Shown one piece after another: positions 1 to 57,000 of a stretch of 64,000 nt of DNA. This stretch comes from Chrysomallon squamiferum (lineage: Eukaryota > Animalia > Mollusca), in assembly GCA_012295275.1 (NCBI GenBank), contig CM022672.1, forward strand, positions 16,554,001-16,618,000, given 5' to 3'. A program made the position numbers and the translations under genes. The number at the start of each line of letters is the position of its first letter. Position 1 is the stretch's first letter. The notes under the pieces are model-generated. The model saw only the letters and a list, made by a program, of their open reading frames with translations, was not told the DNA's origin and did no database searches.

Positions 1-111
1 AGCTAAAAACACTGAAGAAGTTAAATTACTATGCATATTATGTAAAACATACATGCTGTCTCTGTTGCTGCACATGGCTTTAATTTGGCATTTATATTGT
101 GTTTGTTTCAG

Positions 112-6662
<6,551 letters not shown>

Positions 6663-9600
6663 TTGTAATGTAATTTATTTTTATCACAAGTATTTATTTA
6701 ATTACAGTACGAAATGGTTTTTACCTGATGCATTTACAATGTGGGGGGGCTGGCAATATGGTAGCATATATGAATGTGATGTTGATTTTAGTTAATGAAT
6801 ACATGTTGATAGACAAATCTTAGAGAGCTCTGTGGTATTAAATAAAAAATATATATATCTATGTATATGTAGATGCTGTTAGTGTCTTTGAATAATATGA
6901 CCACTGGTTGACAGCAAAGATTGTACACACATATCTGATATATAGCAAATATGTAATATGTAGACATTTGTGATAGTATTAGGGAAGTAATTATGCACCC
7001 AAAAGCAATTTAAAATTTGTATTATGAATTAATATTTATTGGTGAGTAAATTCTCTTTATTGATTCTTCAGTAGATATGGTTTTTAAATAAAAATTCTTG
7101 TCTAATTTTGTTTTGCTTTCCTTCACTGAGGAATAATAAGTGTTTTATGTAAGAAATATTATAATGTAAAATTACATTTCAGTTTTATGATTCTCATTAG
7201 TGAATAAAATAGTTTTTGTGAGAAGAATAATTTAGTGTTGTAGAAATTTGTTTCTGTGGTTCAGCTGAGCAGATTCTTCTTTGTTTTGGGGTCCTAATCT
7301 AGTTTGTACACTGTGGAGAAGGTAGTAATCCATTTTATTTTATATTTTTTGGATGGTATATCTTTTACTGCATATTAAAATCATTCATGTTTTCATTAGT
7401 GCAAGACAAAATCATATCTGATGTGTTAACATACTGTTTTCGTGGACTGAAAATAGCTGAAAAGCAGCAAGGCTTATTTTTATAAACAGTAAGTTTAAAT
7501 CGGATCATTTTTATTAATGACTGACTTGACAGGTGGATTCTTATGCAAAGCTTTTTGTTGTCTCAAAAATCTGTGACATTTTCAGTTTTACATGAACATT
7601 ATTATATATTTATTTAAATACTTTTAACATGAGGGCAGGCATTCTTTATCAGATATTTTAATTACTGAAAACTGATCACTGGATTATGGGTCTCATTATC
7701 ATTAAAATGTATATACTGATACTTTGAAAATAATGAATTGTCATGTCTTTTAACTAGTTTTTGGCTGTTTATATATGAATGTATGATAAAATATGTCTAT
7801 TGTATGCGTAACATGACATTTTGTAATTAATACTGTTGAAAATCTATTGTGTATTTTTTGTTAGTCAAGGTTTTGTGGTGCATATTATTTTTCTAAGATT
7901 TTGTTATTGAAACTTTCTGTTTAGGTTATTTATTAACAGAGGTTAAAATCTGAACTGATATACAAACAAAAACGTCTTGTTCTAAGTATTGTCAAATAAT
8001 AAAATTAAAGCAGGATTGCTTTGGTTTAAAGCCTCTTTATAAATGATAGTCCGTGAATAACTCATGTACCTGATAACTGTTTGCCCCAAAATAACTTCTT
8101 GTTTTTAATAAATACTAGCTCACAAACAACCTCTTGCTGCTAACAAATTCTGGCCTGTCAGTAATCTTTTGACTCTGATAAATTCTAGAACCAAATAACC
8201 ATTTCTTTTTGTTCTAATAAATGTCAAAAATAAGATGGTGATAACAAAGTGATGGTGTTAATGTCTATGTCATTACATGAATGGAGCATATTAATATTGA
8301 AACTGCCAAACATTTGTTGTTTAATCAGTCAGAATTAAAATTTTTAAGTTTTATTAACAGTTTGAAATTAAAGTTTAAATATGTTGTATTCTTTAAAAAA
8401 AAAAAAAAAAAAAAAATTAAAAATTGTTTAATGAACATCTGGTTTTTATTAGAATAAATATTGTATATAGTGAAAACTAAAGGTTTAAAACAAAACAGAA
8501 ATGGCAGATCATTTTTAAATACACGATAGAAAATATTTTCAAGAGGGAACCAAAAGGCTGTAAAATTTGTTTAAGACCTAAAAACATGGATTTTGCATTT
8601 TCTGTCATCAACATTGGTTATAGTAAGTCCACTCTTTGTTTTGTTTATACTGACAATATAATAACTACTGACAGGAAATCAGTTCCCATTCATTATCTCA
8701 ACAGTTAACAAATACTTTGTTACATCTTCAATATCTTTCTATCTTTCACAGCTAGAATTAAGAGCAAAAACAAACCCAATGATCATTCCTTTGGAAATTT
8801 TTGTAATACTAGTATTTGGACAAATTATTATGATTTTTTACTGGTTATTTATTTTTTTTTTTTTTTTTTTTTGGTTTTTTTCGTTTTATGGTTAAAATCT
8901 TTAAAATGTATATAAATTGTTTGCATGTATTTTTTCTGTAAAAATCTATTAACATTTGAGGAGAGATTTAAAGCAGTAGGTGTTGTACATTGTGTTTAAG
9001 TAATGATTATTTATTTACTTTGTCCATTTACATTTTCTTTGGTGGTTTTACTGAATCACATGAATAACAAGTTAAATTTAATATTGAAAATGTTTATATC
9101 TGTGATTTTTACCTGTGTTTTCACACAGCTTGTATTATTCCATTTGTCAATTTTAATTTTATTGTGGGGGAAAAAATACTGCCCTCCAAATTAATATGTG
9201 ATGTGTTTTATGTCTATTCTTGTTAATGCAATATAGGACATCATGTTAATAAATCTGTAATACTGAGCTCATTTGTTTTTTGTTCAAATTTTTTTGTTTG
9301 CGTGCATGTGTGTGTGTGTAAAACAGCTCTAGATTACATAGCTTATTGTTGTTTAAAAAATAACAAACATAGACTGAAAAACATATTAAAATGTAAACTT
9401 TCTAAAAGTGACCCCAACCTACTAACAGTGTTATAGAAATTAATTACAGTTTGACCATGATTCGAGAATACTTCTACAGTCAGAATATTAAAGAACAAGT
9501 ATGTAGGGTCAAATTCCACCATTTCATACAAGTGTCCCGAACTTCCTATCCGGACAGTAAGTTTTGATTACCGGCAATAGAGGTACGTTTTTGCGCGAAA

Positions 9601-10223
9601 ATAATCGTTAAGTTATGAGAAAAAAAAAAAAAAAAAAAAAAAAAAATGTCTTTCTTTCTTTTTTTCTTTTTCTTTTTTCATTCAAATTTATTGATATTGT
9701 TGTTGTTTTGCTTTCATTATAAAATACCCTGTCCGGTGATAAAGGAGCTTATTTCTTTCCTCAAACGGTCTCGAAGTAGCCATCTAGCCCTATCCAGCCC
9801 TGTTCGGCCCAACCAATCCTAAAAAAAAAAAAAAAAAAAAAAAAAAATTCATATAATAATAATATTAAAGTAAACTGTGGTTTCTGAAGAGACGTTACTG
9901 TGATATGTGGAAGTGCTGTATTTTTTATATATATTTCGTATCATATCGAAATAAACGTAACCTGTTGACCTTATATTTTAACACCTGAATAACTGGCCTT
10001 CGGGTTTGTTTATTTACAACAGCTAAATAAAATGATAACAAAACAAACTGATGTTCTGATAACATTTTATTGAACTTTGGCACCGTCATTTGAAATTTAA
10101 CATACCAGTAAAAATACAGTACTTTATGTCGTATCTGTTGTTTAGATAAAGCATAAAGTAGATAAACTAACATGTGCATAACGAATGTAATATATAATTA
10201 TTTCGGAATTGATTTTAAAATAA

Positions 10224-10264
<41 letters not shown>

Positions 10265-10742
10265 TAAATAAATAAACTAATAAATAAATAATAAAACAAA
10301 ACAAAACAAAATAAAATACAAAATTCTAATAAATAAATAAAATTACAGGCTTTAAAAAATATCTGGACTAGTCATTTATTCAAAGTGTAATACTGAAAAC
10401 TTAATTTAACGGACAGCATGAATGTAAAATGATGACATTGCAATTTTAGCAATTTTAACATATAATATATGAAATATTTAACTTAGAAGTTAACAGTTAC
10501 ATTCAGTAAGCAATCATACGAACACAAAATAAGCATTAGATGATATAATTTATCCTAGTATAGTAAAAATGATACAAAGATTAAGCCCCCACATTTTTTC
10601 CCTTCAAACGAAGTCCGTTAAAACGAAAGTACACCATTTAGATTCTGACCTTTCAGTGTAATTTTATTACTATAATAATAATTATCGAAAGTAACATAAA
10701 CAAATAAATACAAAATTTTAAAATTAGTGTATAAATATGCAT

Positions 10743-10792
<50 letters not shown>

Positions 10793-11109
10793 GCATAGCC
10801 TTTATAAAATATAAAAAGCAGCATTATTCTGTTCCTTTGTTAAACTTTCACTATATAACACTATTTATAGAAGTGTAATCGTTCCACTCATTCAGCCTGT
10901 ACTGGCTAACGTAAATATCTGCAGTCTGATTATCGATTTAGCAGCTGATCTAATATGCAAAGGTTACCAATCCGCAGTGCAATCTTCGCGTCTGTTTTGC
11001 TTCAGTTGTTAACGGGATATTATTGTCAGTAGGACAAACTAGAGGCGAGCTGTTGTGCAGTTATTTTCTTTCTTCTCGAGTTCATTTATCAAAAAAAAAA
11101 AAAAAAAAA

Positions 11110-12213
11110 ATGGTGTCCGAAAGAAATAAACACAGTGTAGTTTTAAAGGAAGATGAATTATCAAGAAAAATTTCTCATGAAATTACTACCAAGGGCGAAA
11201 TCGAGATACATGATTACGTGAATTTAAAGAAGTTGCCAGACTTTGCTGTTTTAAATGCTCAAGTGTCCACTCTGGTTAACCAGTGTTCGTGGTGGGAGCT
11301 ATACGGAGTCGACTGGCTAATAACAGTTCAAGGAATTCTTGGAGCTTTCATAGCCTACTGGCTTATGGGTCAAGAATCGATTTTCTCTTTTGGATGTGGA
11401 ATGGTAATTCTTGGAATATGTCATTCTGTTTTATCTACGAAAGCAGGACATCTTGCGGCCCATGGAGCTATATGTGCGTCATCTTCTTGGAATTATTTTT
11501 GGACAGTATTCTTTGTAGAGTTAATAGGAACTTTCTCGGCGGAGTCGGCTTTAGATATACATATCAAAAATCACCATCCTCATACTAATATTATAGGCTT
11601 GGGAGATTCAAGTACCTTCAGAATGCCAGTGATACCTTGTTTTCTATACATGTTTGTCGCACCTTTCAGTGTGCCGGTGCTTATCCCTATTGTCGGTGTG
11701 CAAAGTTTGTGGCGCAAATGGTCAAAATTAATAAGAATGTTGGTAATAGCTACACTGGGATTTTCAGCAAATGTATACTTCATGATGGCAATTTCTGGTC
11801 TTTCTTTTTGGCAGGCTTTTGTTTGCACTTTTGTCAGTAGGTCGATTATGGGACTGCCATATATACATGTCAACATTTTCCAGCACATTGGTTTGCCTAT
11901 GTATTCAAGAACCAACCGGCCTAAAAGAATATATCAAATGTCAACAGCAGTTCTTAATCTACCTCGTAATGTCATCCTGGATCGCGCTTTTGGCCATAGC
12001 ATCGTTAGCTGTCATGTTGAACATCATCTTTTCCCGCGTCTTAGCGACAACATGTGTCTTAAAATCAAACCGCTGGTGTCTTCATTTCTGAAAACGAACG
12101 GACTACCATACAACGAAGACACCTATTTAAATCGACTGAAGTTATTCGTCAGCAAATATGGGGAACTGATGGTTAATGCTCCACCAATAACACATTTTGT
12201 CGGCCTGCAATAA
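11110..12213 (+). CDS. FADS6: Fatty acid desaturase 6-like membrane desaturase, single-exon CDS, 367 aa
   Basis: First ATG at 11110 (the track ORF starts at an upstream TTG). Three His boxes HLAAH, HIKNHH and HVEHH, plus HPHTNIIGLGDSS, HVNIFQHIGLPMYS and HHLFPRLSDNMCLKIKP typical of FADS6. No cytochrome b5 domain. Confidence 0.92.
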   Translation: MVSERNKHSVVLKEDELSRKISHEITTKGEIEIHDYVNLKKLPDFAVLNAQVSTLVNQCSWWELYGVDWLITVQGILGAFIAYWLMGQESIFSFGCGMVILGICHSVLSTKAGHLAAHGAICASSSWNYFWTVFFVELIGTFSAESALDIHIKNHHPHTNIIGLGDSSTFRMPVIPCFLYMFVAPFSVPVLIPIVGVQSLWRKWSKLIRMLVIATLGFSANVYFMMAISGLSFWQAFVCTFVSRSIMGLPYIHVNIFQHIGLPMYSRTNRPKRIYQMSTAVLNLPRNVILDRAFGHSIVSCHVEHHLFPRLSDNMCLKIKPLVSSFLKTNGLPYNEDTYLNRLKLFVSKYGELMVNAPPITHFVGLQ

Positions 12214-13576
12214 AAATGCTTCAGACATTTAAAATTTACGCAAGACTGGGATATTAAAGACAAATTAAAACAAAGAAAAAACGAAAAAGCTTTAAAAAAC
12301 AAAACAATAAAAGAACAACAAAAACAAGATGTAATAAGGAAAGAACTGACAAATACAAAAGATTTACTTTATTATTTTTGTTTGTAACAAATTATTGAAA
12401 TCTATACAAAAAAATACCATATACATCGAATTACTATAAATATGCATGACATAATTTTTTAAATTTTATATTTAATTAAAGTTTGTTTAAATAATAAGAT
12501 ACATATTATATTGGTTTCATCATCTATTATATATTACCGAGATTTGTATGTATATTCTTGCATCATAATTTGTCATGATTAAATAATTTCACGTTCGCAT
12601 TGTTACGCAATCAATGTATTTAAAGTGCGGGTTCTGCAGTCTGTATTGTCTCTTCATAAAGTCACGTATTTTAAAACTAATTTCAGGCATTTAAAAGCCA
12701 CATTCTTAAATTACTTAAAAATTATCCATTATTTCTCTACCTACATGCAATTATATTTTTCAGAATAAATGTTTTATGTAAATTGTCGGCAATCACCGTG
12801 CCGTTTACGATAAGCAACCAGAAATCTTTACATTAATCTTTAATTACCATGATCTTTGATATATCATGCAATCGTGATTCACTAGGTATTAATACCGTCT
12901 CTTACTAATGCATAAAATAAAGCAAGAAAACTATAATGGTTAAAATACGTGTCGCCAAATATATAAAATACCCAACAATACACTCTGTTAATATACATTA
13001 TTTATTATTTTTGTTTTAATAATTCTGGTAAATGTCACGCGTTCATTGATCCACGCTTATTAGTATAAATGATCACGTTTATTTTTTAGTGTATGGTTTC
13101 AGTTAGGTTTAACATTTTGTTATAAACGCAATTAATACAATATCGTTAATTCTTGTACTATTTAAAATAAAATTAACATGCACTATTGTTGTTGTTGTTA
13201 ATTTTATTTATTGTTTTTTTTTTTGTTTTTTTGAATTAATGTACATATATATTTTTTATAAGTATTTTCGTTTCTTAGGAATATGAGCAATTGTTTTTGT
13301 GCATTACGCTGGGTTTTGTTGCTGTTGTTTTTTTATTTCATTTGCTAAATTATTTCAATACCAGAACATTTTAATTTGTGCTTCTTAAAACGTTTTATAT
13401 GAGAATAATATCAATACTTTTCCATCTGTTACAGATTTGCAGGAATCACACACACACACACACACACAAACAAACATGACAGAAAATAAATAATTATTAA
13501 TATGTGAATATATATAATAAATTAAGAAAAATTAAAATAAAAATAGAACAAAAATGATATGGAATGTTATTTAATA

Positions 13577-14932
13577 TTAAAGAATAAAAACTTTGCCCTG
13601 AACAACTAGAGATGAACCTGGTTTACAGGCTGGTGGTAATCTTGATATCATGGCTTTGGGCTTCTGATGTGTCTCAGACATATAACCCAAACACATACTG
13701 CTTGTTGTGTGACCCCATAAAATCTCAATGCTTCTTTTGTCTGAAATGTTTGTGGGCTCATCAGAAGTAATTCTATTTTCAACAACTAAGCCCAAGATGC
13801 CAGCATTTTTTTCCTGATCATTTTTCAGAAATTCAGATTTTAGAAAACAGTCGTCAAGCACATTTCTAAATGTTAGAATACCATCATCATTTTTCTGTAG
13901 TGCATCACCACATTGTTTAGAAAGAAGTGTTTTCATCAACTGCTCACCACAACCAGAGGTAGCTACAGCAACACCAGGCTTGTTATTTTCTAAACCATTA
14001 TGTGCCCAGCAGCCTGCACCATACACTGCTGCAGGTCCTAATCTTCCCATATGTTTCAGCCATATCCCACCACTAGATACAGCTGCTGCAACATTGCCTG
14101 CATGGTCAACACAAACAGCACCAACAGTGTCTTGAACATCAGTGATTTGTGCTTTTGTATTGTTAACATTAGACTTTTGTAAATTACAACATTCGCCCAC
14201 GTCCTGTACAGTGGTATTTTCTTCTTTAAGCAATGATGGATATTCAGATGTACAAGAATGATTTTCTTTGGAGGATGAACTCTTGTGAATATTTTGATAT
14301 AAAGTCATATTTTTTGATTCGTCAAAATCTATTTCTAAATTTTCTGCATTGACCACCTCTTTGAAACTGCTGTCTAGTTTGTTTTTCTTATTTACAATAC
14401 ATACTTCAACATTTTCTAATTTTCTTTTATATTTATTATATATTTTTCTGGCAGTGCCAGTGATTAAATATTCGTCATCTACGCATTGCAAGCCATTTTG
14501 GGATGCCCAGTAATATGCACCTTCTCCAACCATCACACTGGGAGGAATTCTTCCAAGGGAAAGAAGACCCTTGTTCTGCATCACTACAAGCTTGTGAGCT
14601 ACCTCCACAGGATTTTTAACTCCAGAAACACTACCTACTGCACCAAAAGAAAGTGATGCCCCATCCATGACTCCTGCATCACATTCAACCTGTCCTTCTA
14701 AAGTGAGATTGGAACCTAATCCAGCATTTGTACATGGACTGTCCTCCAGAGACTTGACTGCCTCTTTGACTGCTTCAAGTGCATTTCCCCCTGACCTTAG
14801 ACAATTCATTGCAATACTGCAGGCTAATCTACATGCAGCTAGATATTTATCTTTATTATTTACTGCATGATAGCCAGCTCCTGCATGCACAGCTATGAAT
14901 GATTTCTGCTCTGAATTATCTGAATTTAACAT
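13577..14932 (-). CDS. TASP1: Threonine aspartase 1 (Taspase-1), single-exon CDS, 451 aa
   Basis: Type-2 asparaginase/Ntn-hydrolase motifs FIAVHAGAG, LEDSPCTNAGLGSNL, ECDAGVMDG, autocleavage D|TVGAV (Thr codon 14128-14126), SSGG..KH.GRLG.AA.YGAGCWA, TSGCGEQL, WGHTTSSMCLGY. First ATG at 14932; the track's upstream GTG start lies in a pyrimidine tract/acceptor. Confidence 0.95.
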   Translation of the reverse strand: MLNSDNSEQKSFIAVHAGAGYHAVNNKDKYLAACRLACSIAMNCLRSGGNALEAVKEAVKSLEDSPCTNAGLGSNLTLEGQVECDAGVMDGASLSFGAVGSVSGVKNPVEVAHKLVVMQNKGLLSLGRIPPSVMVGEGAYYWASQNGLQCVDDEYLITGTARKIYNKYKRKLENVEVCIVNKKNKLDSSFKEVVNAENLEIDFDESKNMTLYQNIHKSSSSKENHSCTSEYPSLLKEENTTVQDVGECCNLQKSNVNNTKAQITDVQDTVGAVCVDHAGNVAAAVSSGGIWLKHMGRLGPAAVYGAGCWAHNGLENNKPGVAVATSGCGEQLMKTLLSKQCGDALQKNDDGILTFRNVLDDCFLKSEFLKNDQEKNAGILGLVVENRITSDEPTNISDKRSIEILWGHTTSSMCLGYMSETHQKPKAMISRLPPACKPGSSLVVQGKVFIL

Positions 14933-15533
14933 ATTTGTGCTAATGTCCTCTGACAATAAAACAAAGCTTGTCACAGTTCAATGAAAGTTGTCATAATAAA
15001 AATAAAAATAATAATAATAAAATTTTAAGTATTTTTTATGGCAATACAAAACCAACAGGAATGTGGGTTCTATTTTGCAAAGACGGTTTGACAGAATTTT
15101 TATTTAAATTGATATGAAAAAAAGAATTAAATATTCATTGACATGTAATCTTTAACTATATGACAAATAACTAAATATTTTAAACTGGAGAATCTAATAA
15201 ACATGCGAATAAAACTGGCATATTTCATAAACCAAACAATAAACAGTATATAAATATTCAAAACATATTGTTAACATAAAAATGCTATTAAAATTTAAAA
15301 TACACAACATGTAAAAATTAACAGATAACCTAACAGCTAATACATGATTGATTAAGAATGAAAATGAAAATAAACCTGAGGCAAGTCTGTTTCACTGAAT
15401 CAACTAAACACACACTGTGACATTGTCAAAGCCAAAACAGTTTAGTGGATTTAATTCCAGCAACAGAAAATTTATCTTTGTGAAATAGTCTTTTAGGTTT
15501 AATAGTTCTAGTTATCTTTCAAAAGGTTTTTTC

Positions 15534-17221
15534 CTAGTGCCTGATGTGATTAATATGTCCCTGAAAGAAAAATGTTTATTTATTAGTATCACTGTCATTT
15601 TTTAAATCTTTTTTAACAGTTATCTGAGTTATTTAGCTGGTAAAATATTACATCTGATCAAACTTTATTATATTCCAGTCCTGATGTCTTTTTAAAAATA
15701 TAACACACATAATTAAAATTAAAAAAAAAAATATATATATATATATATTTAAGTAAATAATTTTTAGTAAAGTTTAATAAATTGTTATGAAATGTGTACA
15801 GCCACTTTAAATTATGATGTTTCATGAATCAATTAAGTATATAGTTAAAAGCATTCAGTAATTATTTACCAATTCAAAATAAAACAAATACCATAAATAA
15901 ATATATTTCAGACCCTGCTGATCTAAAAAAATAATAATAATAAAAAAAATAAAAATAAAAACTAATAAACAAAAAATATTAATTTCAGTGAAATAAAACA
16001 GATTGAAGTAATACACCTACTGATTCCCCAGCCCTACATCTGTGACATTCTATCTGTACATTTCCTTGACTAGTCTGTAACAAAACAAAATTCTGGTCAG
16101 GTACTGCAGAGCTGGAAACTGAGTTGCCAATCTGCATAGGCTGAAAAACAAACAAAACGTAAGTGATAAATGCAGCCAGTTACAGAAAAATAGCCAGTTA
16201 CTTTGAAATGTGTAAGATAATAGCAACTAAGGATTTCTGCCAAAAAGAGTAGCAGAAAGATACATTACTAATTTGTGCCTCATTTACTTGATCTTTGAAG
16301 TAAGCAAATTTCAACAAATTTGTGTTTATCTGTAACACAAGTAACTGTCAATAAATACCAGTTAAAGTATTCATTTGGTCTCACATACAAAACGTTTCAT
16401 TCATTTATTTGCTAATAACATGATATACTATGATATTCTTGTGGATAACTTTAACATCATTTACCAGAAAGATATTTTAAAATTAATTAGAAAGACTGAG
16501 TATATCATTTGCAAACATTTACTAGTGCCTCAGCTCATCAAGGATTTTTCACATTTATTTTACAGAATGACATCATAAAAAGCATCCTTAATGCATACGT
16601 TCTACTATTTCTTTTTGTCTTAGCATAGGTTGGTTGCCAGAAATAAATAAAACATTAAACTGGAATTGTATAAAACCAGTCAAGGCTCTCAAGATATGAA
16701 AGGTTCACTTCGAAAAGATTTGATCCCCAAAATATTAGGATGTTAGAAAAAAATATTAACAATTCATTGAATGAATGATTAAAATACCTGAGGTACTTCT
16801 TCCTTTTTAACACCTATTTTGTTTATTACACATTCAGGTGGGAATGGTTCATTAGTTTTGACTACTTCTGCAGCAGGATGTGCAAACAAAGTGCTCGAGT
16901 TCGATATATACTGCCGTTTCTGAAATATATGTTATAATAAATAAATAAATAAATAGATAAATAATAATAAAAATAAATAAATAAAAGATAAAAAATTCGA
17001 AAGAAAAATCCGAAAAAAATATATCGTGTTAGCAGGCCAAATAAAAGACCTACCGTCGGTGATATCTTAAGTGTAAAATGGTAAACACTCGGCGCCAGCG
17101 CTCCTATCGAGCGTTTGGGCCTTGGCCACTAATTTTAACGAACCACTTTTAATTCATTTATGTAGACAACAGAAGCTTCGCATCTTCGAACATCAAGGTA
17201 TTTTCTTTTTCGTTCCAACAT
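15534..17221 (-). CDS. Small uncharacterised C10orf143-like protein (~122 aa) with C-terminal CxxC-x6-HxxH motif; not in the ORF track
   Basis: Minus-strand phase-0 exons: 17221-17144 (MLERKRKYLDVRRCEASVVYINELKV), 17065-17054 (ISPT), 16919-16788 (KRQYISNSS...KKEEVPQ), 16140-16021 (PMQIGNS...QIECHRCRAGES), 15560-15534 (GHINHIRH*). The last three have clear TTTCAG acceptors; the 16919-16788 and 16140-16021 exons end in GT donors. The C-terminus CHRCRAGESGHINH resembles the human C10orf143 end (CPRCIAGESGHFSH, from memory). The first two exons are less certain. Confidence 0.75.
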
Positions 17222-18065
17222 GTTGTCTGGGTAGTTATTCACGTAGCAACTTTCATATTTGAAACAAATTTAAGATAACAATACCAGTAGAGTAAGGACT
17301 TGACTGGTATCTTCTTTTGGCACGATAACTGCTGAAGCGCAATAACAGCCGCTACCAGTTTGTACCAGGGAGAAACGAAGGGACACATTAATTAAGAACA
17401 GATTAATCTTCACAGGACAACCTTTGATGAACTGTGTTCAGAAAATTATCATTAAATGTTGGCATGACTATAGCTGAAAATTATTAGAAGTTGCAGCCGG
17501 TTTTATAATAATAATAATAATAAAAATAAATAACTACTGTCACGAACAATGACACAGAACAGTACCTGCACACGTACCTTATTTTAACAAGAACATTGTG
17601 AACAACAATTTGACGAAGAAAACTGCTTGTGTTTGTGTATGTCTATATATGTATATAATAAAATGAAATACAATATACTACTAATAATTTAAAAAAATAA
17701 AGTAGCGTTTTTTGGGTGTTTTTATATTTTTTTGTTTTTGTTTTTTGTTGTTTACTTTTAGTTGTAACGCAATTGCATATTTAATTGCTATATGGACAAT
17801 ACAATTTAAATAAAAACTAGCCTGAATGCGGATCTTTTCTGTATGGATTAATCGAACACTAAGCAGCTTGCTAATTATATATACAAAGGCAAACCTAACA
17901 TAAAAGCAAAGGAATTACTTCTAGCTGTTTTGTTTTTGTTTGTATACATACATACATACATACATACACACATACATGCATACACATACATGCATACATA
18001 CATGCATTCATACATTCATATATCATTATATGTGTGTTTTATTTATTTATTTATTTATTTATTTA

Positions 18066-18113
<48 letters not shown>

Positions 18114-18480
18114 AAATTTCAAAGAACATTCTGTCAGAAAGGTGTTGCTTTTCTAGGCTTAATAATGATTTGCATCCATATTGTTCTCCCCTACTGGGCC
18201 TCAGATGTTTTTTTTTTCCCTCATTATATTACATTCGCCATGGCAGCAATATAAACTTCCGGCAGTTTTACAATCGAAACGTCAGTACATTAATGTAGAA
18301 TGGCTGTCTTATTTCTACAGTGATATACATGGTTTGTTAAAAGAATCTTATAAACATTAACTAATACAAGACTACTCCTCACTTTAATATGAGCAGGTAC
18401 GTTTGGGCGTAGAAAGTTACCCGATGCTGGTATTCTTTGAAAACGCCAAATAATTGCGGTGGGAGACCATGTGATTATAA
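17000..18480. promoter_or_regulatory. CpG-retaining divergent promoter region between the C10orf143-like/TASP1 unit (-) and TRPM (+)
   Basis: CpG clusters at about 17020-17620 and 18230-18470 contrast with CpG-poor gene bodies on both sides. ETS-like CTTCCGG near 18256; candidate non-coding TRPM exon donor CAG|GTACGT near 18397 and a small AG...GT segment at about 18649-18690. Confidence 0.55.
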
Positions 18481-19317
18481 TTAGTACTATTATTAATCTA
18501 AAAAAAAAAACACAGACACCAGAAAATAAATAAATAAATAAAATAAAATCAACAAATCCCCCACACCACAATACAAGCAGTTAAATATTTTACCTATGTT
18601 TGTTTATCACAATAATCATTATTTTTGTTGTGTTGTCTTATTTTTAGGGACATGCATTGAAGGATTGATGCAGTTTAGTTTAAACTCAAAGTAACTTAAG
18701 TAATTGTTGCCAATTAAAAAAATTAAAAGTGTTGATGATTTACAATACTTTTTGATAATTGTCTGATTATAAATGGTTTTAATATTACAGTGACACAATG
18801 GAACATAGATTATTATTTTTAAAATGTTGATAATCTGTTAATAAATATTTCATAAATATAATACTTATATTAATAATGATTATAGATAATGTTTTCTTAA
18901 TGGAAAATGTAGAAGAACACAGTGTTTAAAATAAAAAAATTAATAATAATGATGATAATAGTACATATAACTGACACTACTACCACCAGCACCATGATTA
19001 CTACAACTGCTACTGCTTTTGGCTGCTACTGTTGCTACTACAGTTATAATCTTTTTTCACAATAAATATTCAGCAAATAGTTTATGTATTAAACAGTTTT
19101 TGAAACAGAATTTTCACAGTGAAATAATCACAGAAATGAAATTTATTTTAAAACTACAACAACATTAAGAAAAAAACCCAAACAATTTCACATTTATATA
19201 TTAATTAAATATAAAAATTTCTTTTGTTTCTGAAAAGCTAGATGGTATTTAGTACAGTGGCATGAGATTATGAAGACCAACCAAATTTTTAAACAAATTA
19301 CATAAACTTGGCTGAAC

Positions 19318-20422
19318 ATGGCAACAGCTGGTAGAAGGATATTTCCGACAGAGGATATGAGTGGGCAGGCCCAGGGATATGGAGGGGTGCTTCAATCACG
19401 CCTATCTGATCTGGATGCCTCACCTAATTACAAAGTACGGTCCTTGACCCTAGAAGAGGCTCGGTATTCGGACATGAGGAAGAGGATAGGTCTGTCAAGG
19501 GTGCCTAAGGAAAGAAATGCTGTGGATGATTATGACAAAGTTAGTATAATTATTCACGCAGTAACTTTCATATTTGAAACAAATTTAAAGTTAGAGTAAT
19601 TTTAATATATGTCTAAGAAAAAGCTGAAATAAATTCTGACGTTTTTAAGAACTAGCTCAAATATGTTTTGATGATTTAATGATTATAGATCAATTTTCTT
19701 AATTTAGCTTAAATTATATTTTCATGTTTTGAAGAACTTGCTGAAATATATATATATTTTTTTTTTGGCGAAGAACTAGTTTGCATTCATTTTGATGTTT
19801 GAAGAATAAGAATAAATACATTTTGATGTATTGAAAATCCAACTAAAATATGTATTGATCTTTTGAAAAAAAAATTTAAAATAAATTTGAATGTTTTGAA
19901 GAACTAGGTAAAAATAAGTTTTGATGTTTTGAACAACTGGCTTAAATACATTTTAATGTTTCCAAAAAAATTATGATCTGGATTCAGATGTGATGAGAAC
20001 CAAAATTATGGAATATTTTAGAGATCCTGTTTAACAAATGTTAGCAGATAATAACTGAACTGAAATTCAGAGAAACTTACATTCTGAGGTCCTAAAAATA
20101 TATATATAAAATAAATAGTTATTTTAAAATGATTTTCTTTCTTTTTATTATTAATAATGTTTTGTTTAATTATTAACAATATGCATGTAATACTGACTAT
20201 TTCTAAATATATATTTTATAAGAAATCATATCAAGAAATACATTTATGCATATATATATAATTTTCTTTCTTTTTTCTTTAGAAAATTGAAGAACTTACA
20301 GTATTTGTTCGAAATCATTTTAAGATGAAAGAATGCAAAAAATTTGTACCTAAAGAAGGTCAGAAAGTAAAGAAGATAAAAGATTTAAAGTGGGTCAATT
20401 TTTTTGTTTTTAAAATAAGTTA

Positions 20423-54000: not shown

Positions 54001-57000
54001 ATCATACAAATCTTGTTAATCTAAACCTTAAATGATACAAATCTTGTTAATCTAAACCTTGAATGATACAAATCTTGTTTATATGAACCTTAAATGATAC
54101 AAATCTTGTTAATATGAACCTTAAATGATACAAATCTTGTTAATCTAAACCTTGAATGATGCAAATCTTGTTTATATGAACCTTAAATGATACAAACAAA
54201 ATTACATACTTGATGTTTATTATTTTTTTTTTCTCTTGACATCAGCTGCAGCTAATAAAGATGACTTCAAAAAGACATGCAGAATAAAAAATCCCAGTGA
54301 TTAACTTGTTTTATCAACATCCTCATCATCATTAGTGTTGTTATTATTATTACAGATACCAGCGGAAAGCAAGTAAAAAATGACAGCCATTTTGGTGTGT
54401 TAGCCACTGTTCACCTGACTGATGGATCATCTGATGCAGACAGGTTATCTTTTTTTAATTTCTGTCTACAAATTTAGTTTAAATATGCTAACTAATTATG
54501 TTAATTAATTATTATTATCAGTTCTTTTCTTACTAAAGCAGAACACGTAAGAAGTAGTATCAGTTTTTTATCTCTCTCTCCACATTTAGTTTGAATATGT
54601 AATTAATGATAATTATTTTTATTATTTTAGCAAAAAAAAGATATAAGAAGCAATATTTCTTAATGCTATATGCAAATTTTGTTTGAATGTTTAAAATTAA
54701 TAAAAGTTTGATTGTATATTTTTAACTATATGAATTTTATATATTATTATTTTCTATCAGAAGATATTTGATTTTTGTAAATTAATTTTATGGTCACAGG
54801 TATTTGTGAAATAACAAAAGAAGGAAAAAGAATTTGATTTAATTATACTGTAAACATACTTACAGTTTGTGATTATTTTGCCAGTGATAAGTATGATTAG
54901 GAATAATACAGATAAGTAGAAATGAAACCTTGCTCGTTCTATGCAAATGGCTTCTCATTTGATTCCCAGAAAGAATTCTTAAATATACTCTTTTCCATAT
55001 CGTGAAAATACTTTATCACTGGTAGATACTGGAAATACAACCATATGGTTCACTGAACAATACTCACAATTCAACTTACAATTCCTGAGCCTTGCTATTT
55101 AACCACATAAGTTAATTCATTTTATTGAAACAATCTTGTTGGAGGCTAATTAGAGAAATAATTTTGTTTTAGTTGGCAGGTGGCCATTTTGATTTATAAC
55201 AGTAATGACACCAAACGTTTAAAACAGAATGCTGAAGTAACACTTAACTTGATTATGAATCCACCAAACAGTACAGGTGAATAAAACTACTTATATAAAT
55301 GCAAATATAAGAAAAAATAAATATTTGATTTCTTAATCAATATTTAAAAATATTCTTTTATTTTGAAGGAAGGTTATGAACAGATCGATTTTTATTTTAA
55401 CATATAAAGTTCTTTTTTAAGTTAAAATGTACTATAAAAAAAAAAGAAAGAAAAAGCGTTCTCTCTGGAAAATGGAACTGGTATTAAATTAATAGAATTT
55501 TATAGAAATTTATCTTTTTTCCATAGTGATAAATGTGTAATTGACAGCCTGAAAACAATTGATGAATTAATTAAATACTAACTTAAATCATGTAATTAAA
55601 AAAGACATCTATGATATGATGTACAAAATGAGAAGGAAAAGAAAAGTGTATAAATAAATAAATAAAAGAAAAAAGAAAAAATATCTTTACTGAAACAATA
55701 AATATATATATATATTTTTTTGATGAAGAAGAATTAGTTTACAAAATCATCAAAATACATGTAAATAATTCTGGATCAGACTGATTAATCTGCAGTTGTC
55801 AAACATTAAAAATTATTATGAAATGAAATATCTATATTTGTTCTTCAGAAATGATGATTGCCAGTTACACAGTTAATCAAGCAGATGTGAATCCATTTGC
55901 TATCTGGTTATCTCAGGGAAAACCAAATTACCCATCACGAAAACAGTTTGAAGAAATGAGAAAACATGAGGTATGCCAAACTTCATTTTTATCTTTCCTG
56001 GAACAACCTCCATTCAAAAGTAATTGGAAAGAATTTAGATATATATTAATGTAGAGAGAACGTTCTAAATTTTTAAAAATTATTTTTCAAAATCATTATC
56101 ATCATCATCATTATAACAGTTATTAAAAAGAAAAATAGAAAATAGAAAAGGTATTTTTTTCTGTTTTTATATATATATATATATATATATACATATAGAT
56201 ATATACAGTGGTACCTCAACTTACGAGTACCCCAACTTACGAGTTTTTCAAGTTTACTTGCCCAGTAGATTTTTTGCTTTGAGTATACAAGCCAAAATCC
56301 AAGTTATGAGCGAGTTTCAGATACACTGCCACTATTTGGTGCAATGAACAACATAACATCTGGCCAGCAACCTGCATGTCATTCATTTACTTCACGTGAT
56401 TACTGCAGAAGGATCTCTGTTGTGTTGTGCTCGTGTTTTGTGCAGTATCTCCAAATTTCTTTTTTCTGGTCATGGATCCTGAAGTGCAAAGAACAGTGCT
56501 GAGAAGAAAAGCAGATGATGTCCATTGAATTAAAGCTTGAATTCATAGAAAAACACAAGGGAAGTGTGCATGTAGTCGACTTGGCTAGGCAGTGAGAGCA
56601 TAGTACTTTTACGATATGTACCATACTGAAGCAGGAGGAGTTGATAAAGGCTATAACTGCAGCCAAAGGCATTAAAATAATTTGTCTGATCTCCAAGATA
56701 AATACACTTTACAAAACCAATTTATTTCTTTACATTCTCTTTATTTTATTTTTATACAATATTTGTCATTTATAAATACATTTTTCTTATTTAAATGAAT
56801 ACACAAAAAATTGGGGTGGTTTTTGAGGGCCTGGAACAAATCAATGGTATTTCAATTAATTTCAGTAGGGAAAATTGATTTGATATATGAGCAAATTGAG
56901 ATACGAGCTAGGTCATGGAACGAATTAAACTCGTAAGTCAAGGTACCACTGTATATATATATAATTTTTTTTTTTTTTTTTTTTTTAATAGAATCCACAC

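What the first reader, a model, noticed from the sequence alone, without database searches (positions are those of the whole stretch)
13577..17280. Candidate bicistronic or shared-promoter unit: a C10orf143-like ORF followed by an intronless Taspase-1 ORF
Seen: a spliced minus-strand gene for a ~122-aa protein ends with TAG at 15534. After 158 nt there is a donor-like CAG|GTTTAT (15376/15375). A strong acceptor TTTGTTTTATTGTCAG| (exon start 14949) then lies only 17 nt before the TASP1 ATG (14932). The ~600 bp between the ORFs and the TASP1 ORF itself are CpG-poor, while the other gene starts in the window lie in or near CpG-retaining patches; the nearest such patch on this strand is at about 17000-17600. 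All upstream coding donors are phase 0 and the TASP1 frame needs phase 1, so no fusion protein is predicted. Known: vertebrate TASP1 is multi-exon and cleaves MLL/KMT2A and TFIIA; C10orf143 is uncharacterised. Inference: TASP1 is expressed from the small gene's promoter, as a second cistron (175-nt spliced spacer with one 7-codon uORF at 15423) or an alternative last exon, possibly after a retrocopy landed in its 3' UTR. I know of no description of this pairing.
Basis: partly seen in the sequence, partly recalled or inferred. Interest (0 to 1): 0.85.

Follow-up and report, generated by a model that had tools for sequence, protein, structure and literature searches.

The report
Snail Taspase-1 retrogene borrowing neighbour's promoter
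In a snail genome an intron-free gene for the protease Taspase-1 starts 601 bases behind a small spliced gene and likely runs off that gene's promoter, which would be a mollusc example of an arrangement already known in flies and mammals, although no sequenced RNA piece yet links the two genes.

Summary
The anatomy is real. A four-exon gene on the minus strand (118 aa, not ~122; three joints seen in RNA) stops 601 nt before an intact, intronless Taspase-1 ORF. The animal is a gastropod near Gigantopelta. TASP1 looks like a retrogene: clams, mussels, scallop and abalone appear to have a coding intron that it lacks, and it is linked to FADS6 only in this lineage. The spacer is as CpG-poor as gene bodies, unlike all four promoter regions in the window, and the 14949 acceptor is strong. 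Contigs cross that acceptor unspliced in 3 of 4, small-gene contigs stop beside an ATTAAA, and 80 nt stay unbridged. Best reading (0.55): TASP1 is transcribed by read-through from the small gene's promoter. Main rival (0.35): its own CpG-poor promoter in the neighbour's 3' end. The C10orf143 label could not be tested. Closest known: mouse Taf9 in Ak6, and fly dicistronic loci. The scan noted similar pairs (other genes) in other genomes; this pair was not found in print. New member of a known kind.

The parts
17144..17285 (-). Small gene exon 1 (ATG at 17221, 26 codons; 5-codon uORF at 17256); transcription start near or just above 17285, in a CpG-retaining patch
   Evidence: RNA contigs of 4 of 4 runs end at 17256-17285; joint 17144>16919 in X1 and X3; CpG o/e 1.25
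17048..17056 (-). Second, stronger donor (intron would start at 17053) inside intron 1; use not shown
   Evidence: 8.4 bits against 6.8 for the used donor; one X1 contig ends exactly at 17054, a weak post-hoc hint
16788..16919 (-). Small gene exon 2 (44 codons, phase 0)
   Evidence: Joint 16788>16140 in X1, X3, X4
16021..16140 (-). Small gene exon 3 (40 codons, holds a CxxC motif)
   Evidence: Joints in X1, X3, X4; translation
15534..15560 (-). Small gene exon 4, coding part (8 codons and TAG)
   Evidence: Joint 16021>15560 in X1, X3, X4
15498..15503 (-). ATTAAA, candidate poly(A) signal of the small gene
   Evidence: small-gene contigs end at 15501, 15510, 15490
15410..15489 (-). 80 nt of the spacer covered by no RNA contig; holds the 7-codon uORF start (15423)
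14950..15375 (-). Predicted 426-nt intron (22% GC, 10 of the 11 spacer ATGs); seen only unspliced in RNA
   Evidence: Site scores; unspliced contigs across 14949 in X1, X2, X3 and across 15375 in X2
13577..14932 (-). Intronless Taspase-1 ORF, 451 aa, with the Asp268|Thr269 autocleavage site
   Evidence: Pfam Asparaginase_2 E 1e-50; PDB threonine aspartase 1 E 2.5e-97 against L-asparaginases E 5.5e-27; covered by RNA contigs in 4 of 4 runs
13392..16895 (.). Unbroken CpG-poor domain from small-gene exon 2 to the TASP1 3' end, inferred to be one methylated gene body
   Evidence: CpG positions
11110..12213 (+). Convergent intronless FADS6-like gene, used as control and synteny marker; CpG-retaining upstream region and body

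Best explanation
The intronless Taspase-1 gene is likely a retrogene that has no promoter of its own and is likely transcribed by read-through from the promoter of the small four-exon gene that ends 601 nt upstream. Shown: both genes are expressed, the small gene is spliced as annotated, and RNA runs unbroken from inside TASP1 up to 15216, with a further contig reaching 15409. Inferred: many small-gene transcripts end at the ATTAAA near 15500 and the rest run on to the TASP1 poly(A) site. Inferred: a slowly removed intron ending at 14949, most likely from donor 15375, strips 10 of 11 upstream AUGs and leaves a two-ORF mRNA on which TASP1 is translated at a low rate by reinitiation. Split of the 0.55: spliced dicistronic 0.30; unspliced 601-nt spacer 0.13; exon 1 spliced straight to 14949 (Taf9/Ak6-like, for example from donor 17053) 0.12.
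For: CpG-poor domain is unbroken from 16895 to 13392; spacer 2 CpG against 9.7 (P=0.0035) while 4 of 4 promoter regions keep CpG, including that of the intronless, tandem FADS6 gene. Acceptor 14949 beats 15 of 18 inferred acceptors and lies 17 nt from the ATG (chance about 0.4-0.9%); 15560-15376 would be a 185-nt exon; the 175 nt kept are 33% GC and the predicted intron 22% GC with 10 of 11 ATGs. The spacer is RNA, covered like the TASP1 ORF (mean 0.42 against 0.52) and unlike introns 2 and 3 (0.07, 0.00). The union of the runs also leaves a 38-nt hole inside the ORF, so holes occur. Gigantopelta TASP1 has at least 4 RefSeq accessions for one identical protein, so several mRNAs that differ outside the CDS. 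Retrogene signs.
Against: No contig bridges the two genes (80-nt hole) and no joint into 14949 appears in 4 of 4 runs, at 95% or 82% likeness. Small-gene contigs in 3 of 3 runs that hold exon 4 stop within 20 nt of each other beside ATTAAA 15503. Run X2 has the deepest spacer/TASP1 contig (8.5) but no contig for exons 2-4. Spacer coverage thins upstream (3 runs to 15071, 2 to 15124, 1 to 15409), as it would towards an internal start. In flies, loci that are only polycistronic have stop-to-start distances of -34 to 319 nt (PMC4528330, passages); the unspliced 601 nt is outside that. Reinitiation after a 118-codon ORF is inefficient and a junction 158 nt after a stop may trigger decay (own knowledge). 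In mammals only about 11% of expressed retrocopies use a neighbour's promoter (PMC4772013, passages).
Confidence: 0.55

Rival explanations
1. TASP1 has its own CpG-poor promoter in the 3' end of the small gene (about 15410-15500), with a short first exon, the 15375-14950 intron in its 5' UTR and one coding exon: an ordinary retrogene packed tightly behind a neighbour.
For: Small-gene contigs end at 15490-15510 by ATTAAA 15503, then an 80-nt hole, then a contig starting at 15409, 34 nt above the donor. X2 holds TASP1 and spacer but not exons 2-4. Most mammalian retrocopies gain new promoters (PMC4772013); amphioxus SYCP1 gained a new 5' UTR with introns (PMC5803294, abstract).
Against: No CpG retention at all in 14700-16020 (P 0.0001-0.0035 over four windows) while 4 of 4 promoter regions of the window keep it. 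Contigs are shallow, unstranded, from one study, and filtered, so holes and ends are weak evidence (tool text).
Confidence: 0.35
2. A worm-style operon: the small mRNA is cleaved at ATTAAA 15503 and the downstream RNA receives a spliced leader at the 14949 acceptor.
For: Strong acceptor 17 nt before the ATG after a poly(A) signal.
Against: No loose end at 14949 in 4 of 4 runs; no Rfam match at gathering level in 12000-19500. PMC3795323 (passage) set aside putative mollusc leaders as unproven; PMC7854359 (passages) finds no trans-splicing in annelids.
Confidence: 0.03
3. The read-through RNA is only a long, untranslated 3' UTR or nascent RNA, the splice signals are chance, and working Taspase-1 comes from another copy elsewhere in the genome.
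For: Only unspliced RNA was seen; the libraries also hold unspliced intron 1 in 3 of 4 runs. No genome was held to look for a parent copy.
Against: The ORF is intact over 451 aa with the catalytic site, and 62% identical to the Gigantopelta protein over 99% of its length, which implies long selection. Only one Gigantopelta entry is among the 120 of 834 hits listed.
Confidence: 0.07

Closest known systems
Mouse Taf9 retrogene in the Ak6 locus (PMC4772013 Fig. 2 legend, passages; human TAF9/AK6, PMC7749173, passages)
   Same: An intron-poor gene for a general transcription-related protein expressed with exons and regulatory region of an unrelated host gene; two unrelated proteins from one locus, no fusion.
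   Different: Carelli et al. describe retrocopies inside host introns with chimeric transcripts supported by CAGE. Here the ORF lies behind the host's stop codon and the shared transcript is inferred, not seen.
Drosophila dicistronic loci (159 pairs, 2.5% of genes; PMC4528330, passages)
   Same: Small ORF plus unrelated larger ORF; upstream monocistronic form ending at an early poly(A) site; distances up to more than 1 kb.
   Different: Those are backed by spanning cDNA or RNA-seq. Only-polycistronic fly loci have spacers of at most 319 nt. Tasp1 was not found in the 12 supplementary files searched; file 1 could not be searched.
Amphioxus SYCP1 retrogene replacement (PMC5803294, abstract and outline)
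   Same: Single coding exon in an invertebrate where most animals have many; co-option of a neighbour's promoter; introns in the 5' UTR.
   Different: SYCP1 uses a bidirectional head-to-head promoter and parent loss was shown; here the genes are head-to-tail and parent loss is untested.
Taspase-1 (threonine aspartase 1, Pfam Asparaginase_2)
   Same: Best matches in PDB and in the protein collection; Asp|Thr autocleavage motif in register. Substrates MLL and TFIIA per PMC4905357 (abstract start in listing).
   Different: No coding introns; a lineage-specific insert of about 70 aa before the cleavage site.

Membership tests
Taspase-1 | Closer to threonine aspartase 1 than to isoaspartyl peptidase/L-asparaginase | tested here: met
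   E 2.5e-97 against 5.5e-27 in PDB; named hits among the 120 listed are threonine aspartase 1 or unnamed/hypothetical
Taspase-1 | Asp|Thr autocleavage site with the Thr nucleophile | tested here: met
   Asp268-Thr269, invariant in 16 of 16 aligned sequences
Taspase-1 | Cleaves MLL/TFIIA | not testable with these tools
   No assay
Retrogene | No coding introns where relatives have them | tested here: met
   One 1356-nt ORF. RefSeq isoforms of Mytilus galloprovincialis, M. edulis, Mizuhopecten, Haliotis asinina and Mercenaria break at one point near residue 41 (5 species among the 14 pairs compared); intron inferred from proteins, not read on DNA
Retrogene | New genomic position | tested here: inconclusive
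   TASP1 and FADS6 share a contig length in Gigantopelta and 2 ENA assemblies, and differ in 14 of 14 chromosome-scale outgroups; FADS6 could be the gene that moved
Retrogene | Poly(A) remnant and target-site duplication | tested here: inconclusive
   No convincing flanking repeat among 10 direct-repeat families; not expected for an old insertion
Orphan retrogene | Parent copy lost | not testable with these tools
   No genome held
Dicistronic mRNA (FlyBase sense) | One processed mRNA spans both ORFs | tested here: inconclusive
   No bridging contig in 4 runs; 80-nt hole; depth 2-8
Dicistronic mRNA (FlyBase sense) | Two separate ORFs, no fusion protein | tested here: met
   Coding donors 17143, 16787, 16020 are phase 0; the 17-nt leader puts TASP1 out of that frame; no N-terminal match to the small protein in 138 stored proteins
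Dicistronic mRNA (FlyBase sense) | Both proteins translated from that mRNA | not testable with these tools
   Needs ribosome profiling or reporters
Host-gene (Taf9/Ak6-type) retrogene | Splice joint from host exon into the retrogene | tested here: inconclusive
   0 of 4 runs show a joint into 14949; contigs drop rare forms
SL-resolved operon | Leader joined at the downstream acceptor | tested here: not met
   No loose end at 14949; contigs unbroken there in 3 of 4 runs; shallow data
C10orf143 | Sequence similarity to the human 108-aa protein | tested here: inconclusive
   Single exons gave no Pfam match and no hit in a word search with exon 3; the sensitive profile search never ran. The resemblance of the C-terminal Cys/His motif is recalled, from no call

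The most novel reading that the evidence does not exclude
One snail lineage replaced its intron-containing Taspase-1 with a promoterless retrogene that is made only as the second cistron behind a spliced 118-codon ORF, its output set by poly(A)-site choice and a slow intron: a nuclear dicistronic mRNA in a mollusc, kept since the split from Gigantopelta.
Probability: 0.3. Interest if true: 0.6.

Novelty: new member of a known kind. Interest (0 to 1): 0.36.

Why it matters
If true, a conserved developmental protease depends on read-through and reinitiation behind a full-length multi-exon ORF. That would extend nuclear dicistronic expression to molluscs, where my one search found only mitochondrial and viral cases, and give a compact, datable case of a retrogene surviving without a promoter. 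It would also warn that annotation pipelines may fold such small upstream genes into a 5' UTR. The kind itself is known from flies and mammals, and one long-read experiment would settle it.

Tried and rejected
Homologues of the small protein: Pfam on single exons, word search with exon 3 (5 candidates, none scored), local searches of 80 metagenome loci (best E 0.66) and 138 stored proteins all blank; profile and Atlas searches gave no answer, so the C10orf143 label stays open. Metagenome scan for TASP1 loci (80 kept of 259): none carried the small gene; their organisms were not determined. A fusion protein was rejected on phase. The 80-nt hole alone, and the absence of exons 2-4 in X2, are not taken as proof of a break, since the tool filters records. 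Lowering likeness to 82% added only short low-identity pieces with loose ends, taken as foreign. Target-site duplication search: nothing convincing. Rfam: 4 matches, all below gathering, on a simple repeat. RefSeq accession order in Gigantopelta (TASP1 XP_041369355-358, FADS6 XP_041369649) is 291 or more apart and says nothing on adjacency. Earlier scan notes by sequence, genome and relatives: none.
Full report
Setting. The window is AT-rich animal DNA. No whole genome is held. Best protein hits are Gigantopelta aegis for TASP1 (62%) and FADS6 (73%), so the animal is a gastropod of that lineage. Gene order around the finding: FADS6-like (+, 11110-12213), TASP1 (-, 14932-13577), the small gene (-, about 17285-15500), then a TRPM-type channel gene on +.

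The two ORFs. TASP1 is one 451-aa ORF, far closer to solved Taspase-1 (E 2.5e-97) than to L-asparaginases (E 5.5e-27), with Asp268-Thr269 invariant in 16 of 16 aligned sequences. The small gene is real: four RNA runs of one study give joints 17144>16919 (2 of 4 runs), 16788>16140 (3 of 4) and 16021>15560 (3 of 4). With ATG 17221 this is 118 aa. I could not test the C10orf143 label: single exons gave nothing in Pfam or the word search and the sensitive searches gave no answer. Human C10orf143 is a broadly expressed 108-aa gene with decay-targeted isoforms (PMC6886504, passages); the likeness of the C-terminal motif is recalled only.

Sequence signals in the spacer. With rough matrices trained on 18 acceptors and 36 donors picked by hand from the window (mostly inferred, not RNA-checked; 2 of 20 acceptor picks dropped for lacking AG), the 14949 acceptor scores 12.3 bits, above 15 of 18 left-out true sites. 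Equal sites occur at 0.14-0.31 per kb, so one within 30 nt of the ATG has a chance near 0.4-0.9%. The 15375 donor is ordinary (6.8 bits, 1.1-1.4 per kb). The predicted intron is 22% GC and holds 10 of the 11 spacer ATGs; the 175 nt kept are 33% GC. The total ATG count (11) equals chance (12.1, sd 3.4), so the unspliced spacer shows no selection against upstream starts. This argues that a working TASP1 mRNA is spliced at 14949 or starts close to it.

CpG. The spacer has 2 CpG where promoter-like sequence would give 9.7 (P=0.0035; three other windows over 14700-16020 give 0.0001-0.0008). The four promoter regions (small gene, TRPM, NELF-A/IDUA, FADS6) have o/e 0.72-1.25, and 0 of 67 gene-body windows reach 0.72. 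The CpG-poor domain runs without a break from 16895 to 13392, ending in the TASP1 3' region. FADS6, also intronless and downstream of a same-strand gene, keeps CpG upstream and in its body (0.79 against 0.12 for TASP1). Reading this as methylation rests on the invertebrate pattern of methylated bodies and hypomethylated promoters (PMC11292947, passages on annelids); it is inference, from n=4.

RNA across the spacer. No joint into 14949 appears in any of 4 runs at 95% or 82% likeness. Contigs cross 14949 unspliced in X1 (14889-15124), X2 (14791-15216) and X3 (14816-15071), and X2 also crosses 15375 (15201-15409). Mean cover of the predicted intron is 0.42, against 0.52 for the TASP1 ORF, 0.07 and 0.00 for introns 2 and 3, and 0.00 for 17300-18226, so this is not general DNA carry-over. 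Intron 1 is also often covered (0.49), so slow introns or antisense RNA are present. Small-gene contigs end at 15501, 15510 and 15490, beside ATTAAA 15503, and 15410-15489 is uncovered; the union also misses 38 nt inside the ORF. Depths are 2-8, contigs are unstranded, drop rare forms and are filtered. The data show that the spacer is transcribed with TASP1; they cannot show where that RNA starts. One X1 contig ends exactly at 17054, the exon end of a strong unused donor, which hints at low-level use with an unknown acceptor.

Origin. RefSeq isoforms of Mytilus galloprovincialis, M. edulis, Mizuhopecten, Haliotis asinina and Mercenaria change or insert sequence at one point near residue 41 of the window protein (5 species among 14 pairs compared), which points to a coding intron that this gene lacks. 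TASP1 and FADS6 share a contig length in Gigantopelta (91,665,651) and in two ENA assemblies (195,218 and 375,179), but differ in 14 of 14 chromosome-scale outgroups (3 Haliotis, 2 Patella, Babylonia, Mercenaria, Mactra, Sinanodonta, 4 Mytilus, Owenia) and in 8 of 8 scaffold-level ones, read by eye. Contig length is a proxy for contig identity, and FADS6 might be the gene that moved. Together these favour retroposition before the split from Gigantopelta. Parent loss is untested. Gigantopelta TASP1 carries at least four accessions for one protein, so its mRNAs vary outside the CDS; I could not see those UTRs.

Mechanism. I put 0.55 on read-through from the small gene's promoter, with poly(A) choice near 15500 deciding how much RNA reaches TASP1 and a slow splice to 14949 making the translatable form. 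If that spliced form is decay-prone (junction 158 nt after a stop; own knowledge), its scarcity in shallow contigs would follow, but this is untested. An own CpG-poor promoter at 15410-15500 gets 0.35: it fits the RNA ends at least as well and fails only on CpG. A spliced-leader operon (0.03) and a silent read-through with another working copy (0.07) fit poorly.

Comparison and novelty. Retrocopies that use a host gene's promoter are known: 13 human and 14 mouse cases, with Taf9 in Ak6 as the example, and about 11% of expressed retrocopies piggyback (PMC4772013, passages; PMC7749173, passages). Flies have 159 dicistronic pairs (PMC4528330, passages). Amphioxus SYCP1 is an invertebrate retrogene replacement (PMC5803294, abstract). 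For this pair: the search for C10orf143 and TASP1 lists papers with more terms first and none of the 30 listed of 235 held both; taspase occurred in none of 25 listed of 1,537 papers on polycistronic terms and none of 40 listed of 699 on retrogene terms, which are partial views. A search on mollusc polycistrons (25 listed of 192) showed mitochondrial and viral cases by title; the one I opened was mitochondrial (PMC10635097, passages). Most subscription papers are outside the library, and file 1 of the FlyBase supplement could not be searched. The scan has noted like arrangements with other genes in other genomes; these are unchecked notes and add no support.

Verdict. Observation partly confirmed; interpretation partly supported; new member of a known kind; interest 0.36.

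Noticed in passing
window 16920-17143 (-): Intron 1 of the small gene is covered unspliced in 3 of 4 runs; its used donor is weaker than an unused one at 17053. Retention would stop the ORF after 28 codons. Antisense RNA from the divergent promoter is the alternative.
   Followed up: partly
window 14949-14926 (-): Any phase-0 coding donor joined to 14949 would read 7 codons and stop 4 nt after the TASP1 ATG, an overlapping start-stop of the kind that favours reinitiation; no such joint was seen.
   Followed up: no
window 14979, 15055-15056: RNA contigs of 3 of 3 covering runs differ from the window at these spacer positions, likely alleles; the 14979 change creates an ATTAAA on the minus strand about 30 nt above the acceptor.
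   Followed up: no
window 18294-19540 (+): TRPM-type gene has a non-coding first exon (to 18396) whose RNA contig runs on into 19242; it shares a CpG-retaining divergent promoter region with the small gene.
   Followed up: partly
window 11110-12213 (+): Intronless FADS6-like desaturase, CpG-retaining, convergent with TASP1; linkage to TASP1 seen only in this lineage.
   Followed up: yes
window 56194-56963: About 760-nt element with 35-nt terminal inverted repeats flanked by TA runs in an intron of the IDUA-like (GH39) gene; looks like a decayed Tc1/pogo-type DNA transposon (label recalled).
   Followed up: partly
window 48673 (-) and about 49075 (+): NELF-A and an IDUA-like gene lie head to head about 400 nt apart on a shared CpG-retaining patch.
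   Followed up: no
protein P0014 (ENA): A full-length TASP1 relative whose N-terminus reads like an intron acceptor just before the usual start, possibly another intronless TASP1 or a retained-intron transcript.
   Followed up: no
proteins P0002, P0121 (ENA): The insert before the autocleavage site ends in tandem five-residue acidic repeats that resemble the cleavage-site context.
   Followed up: no
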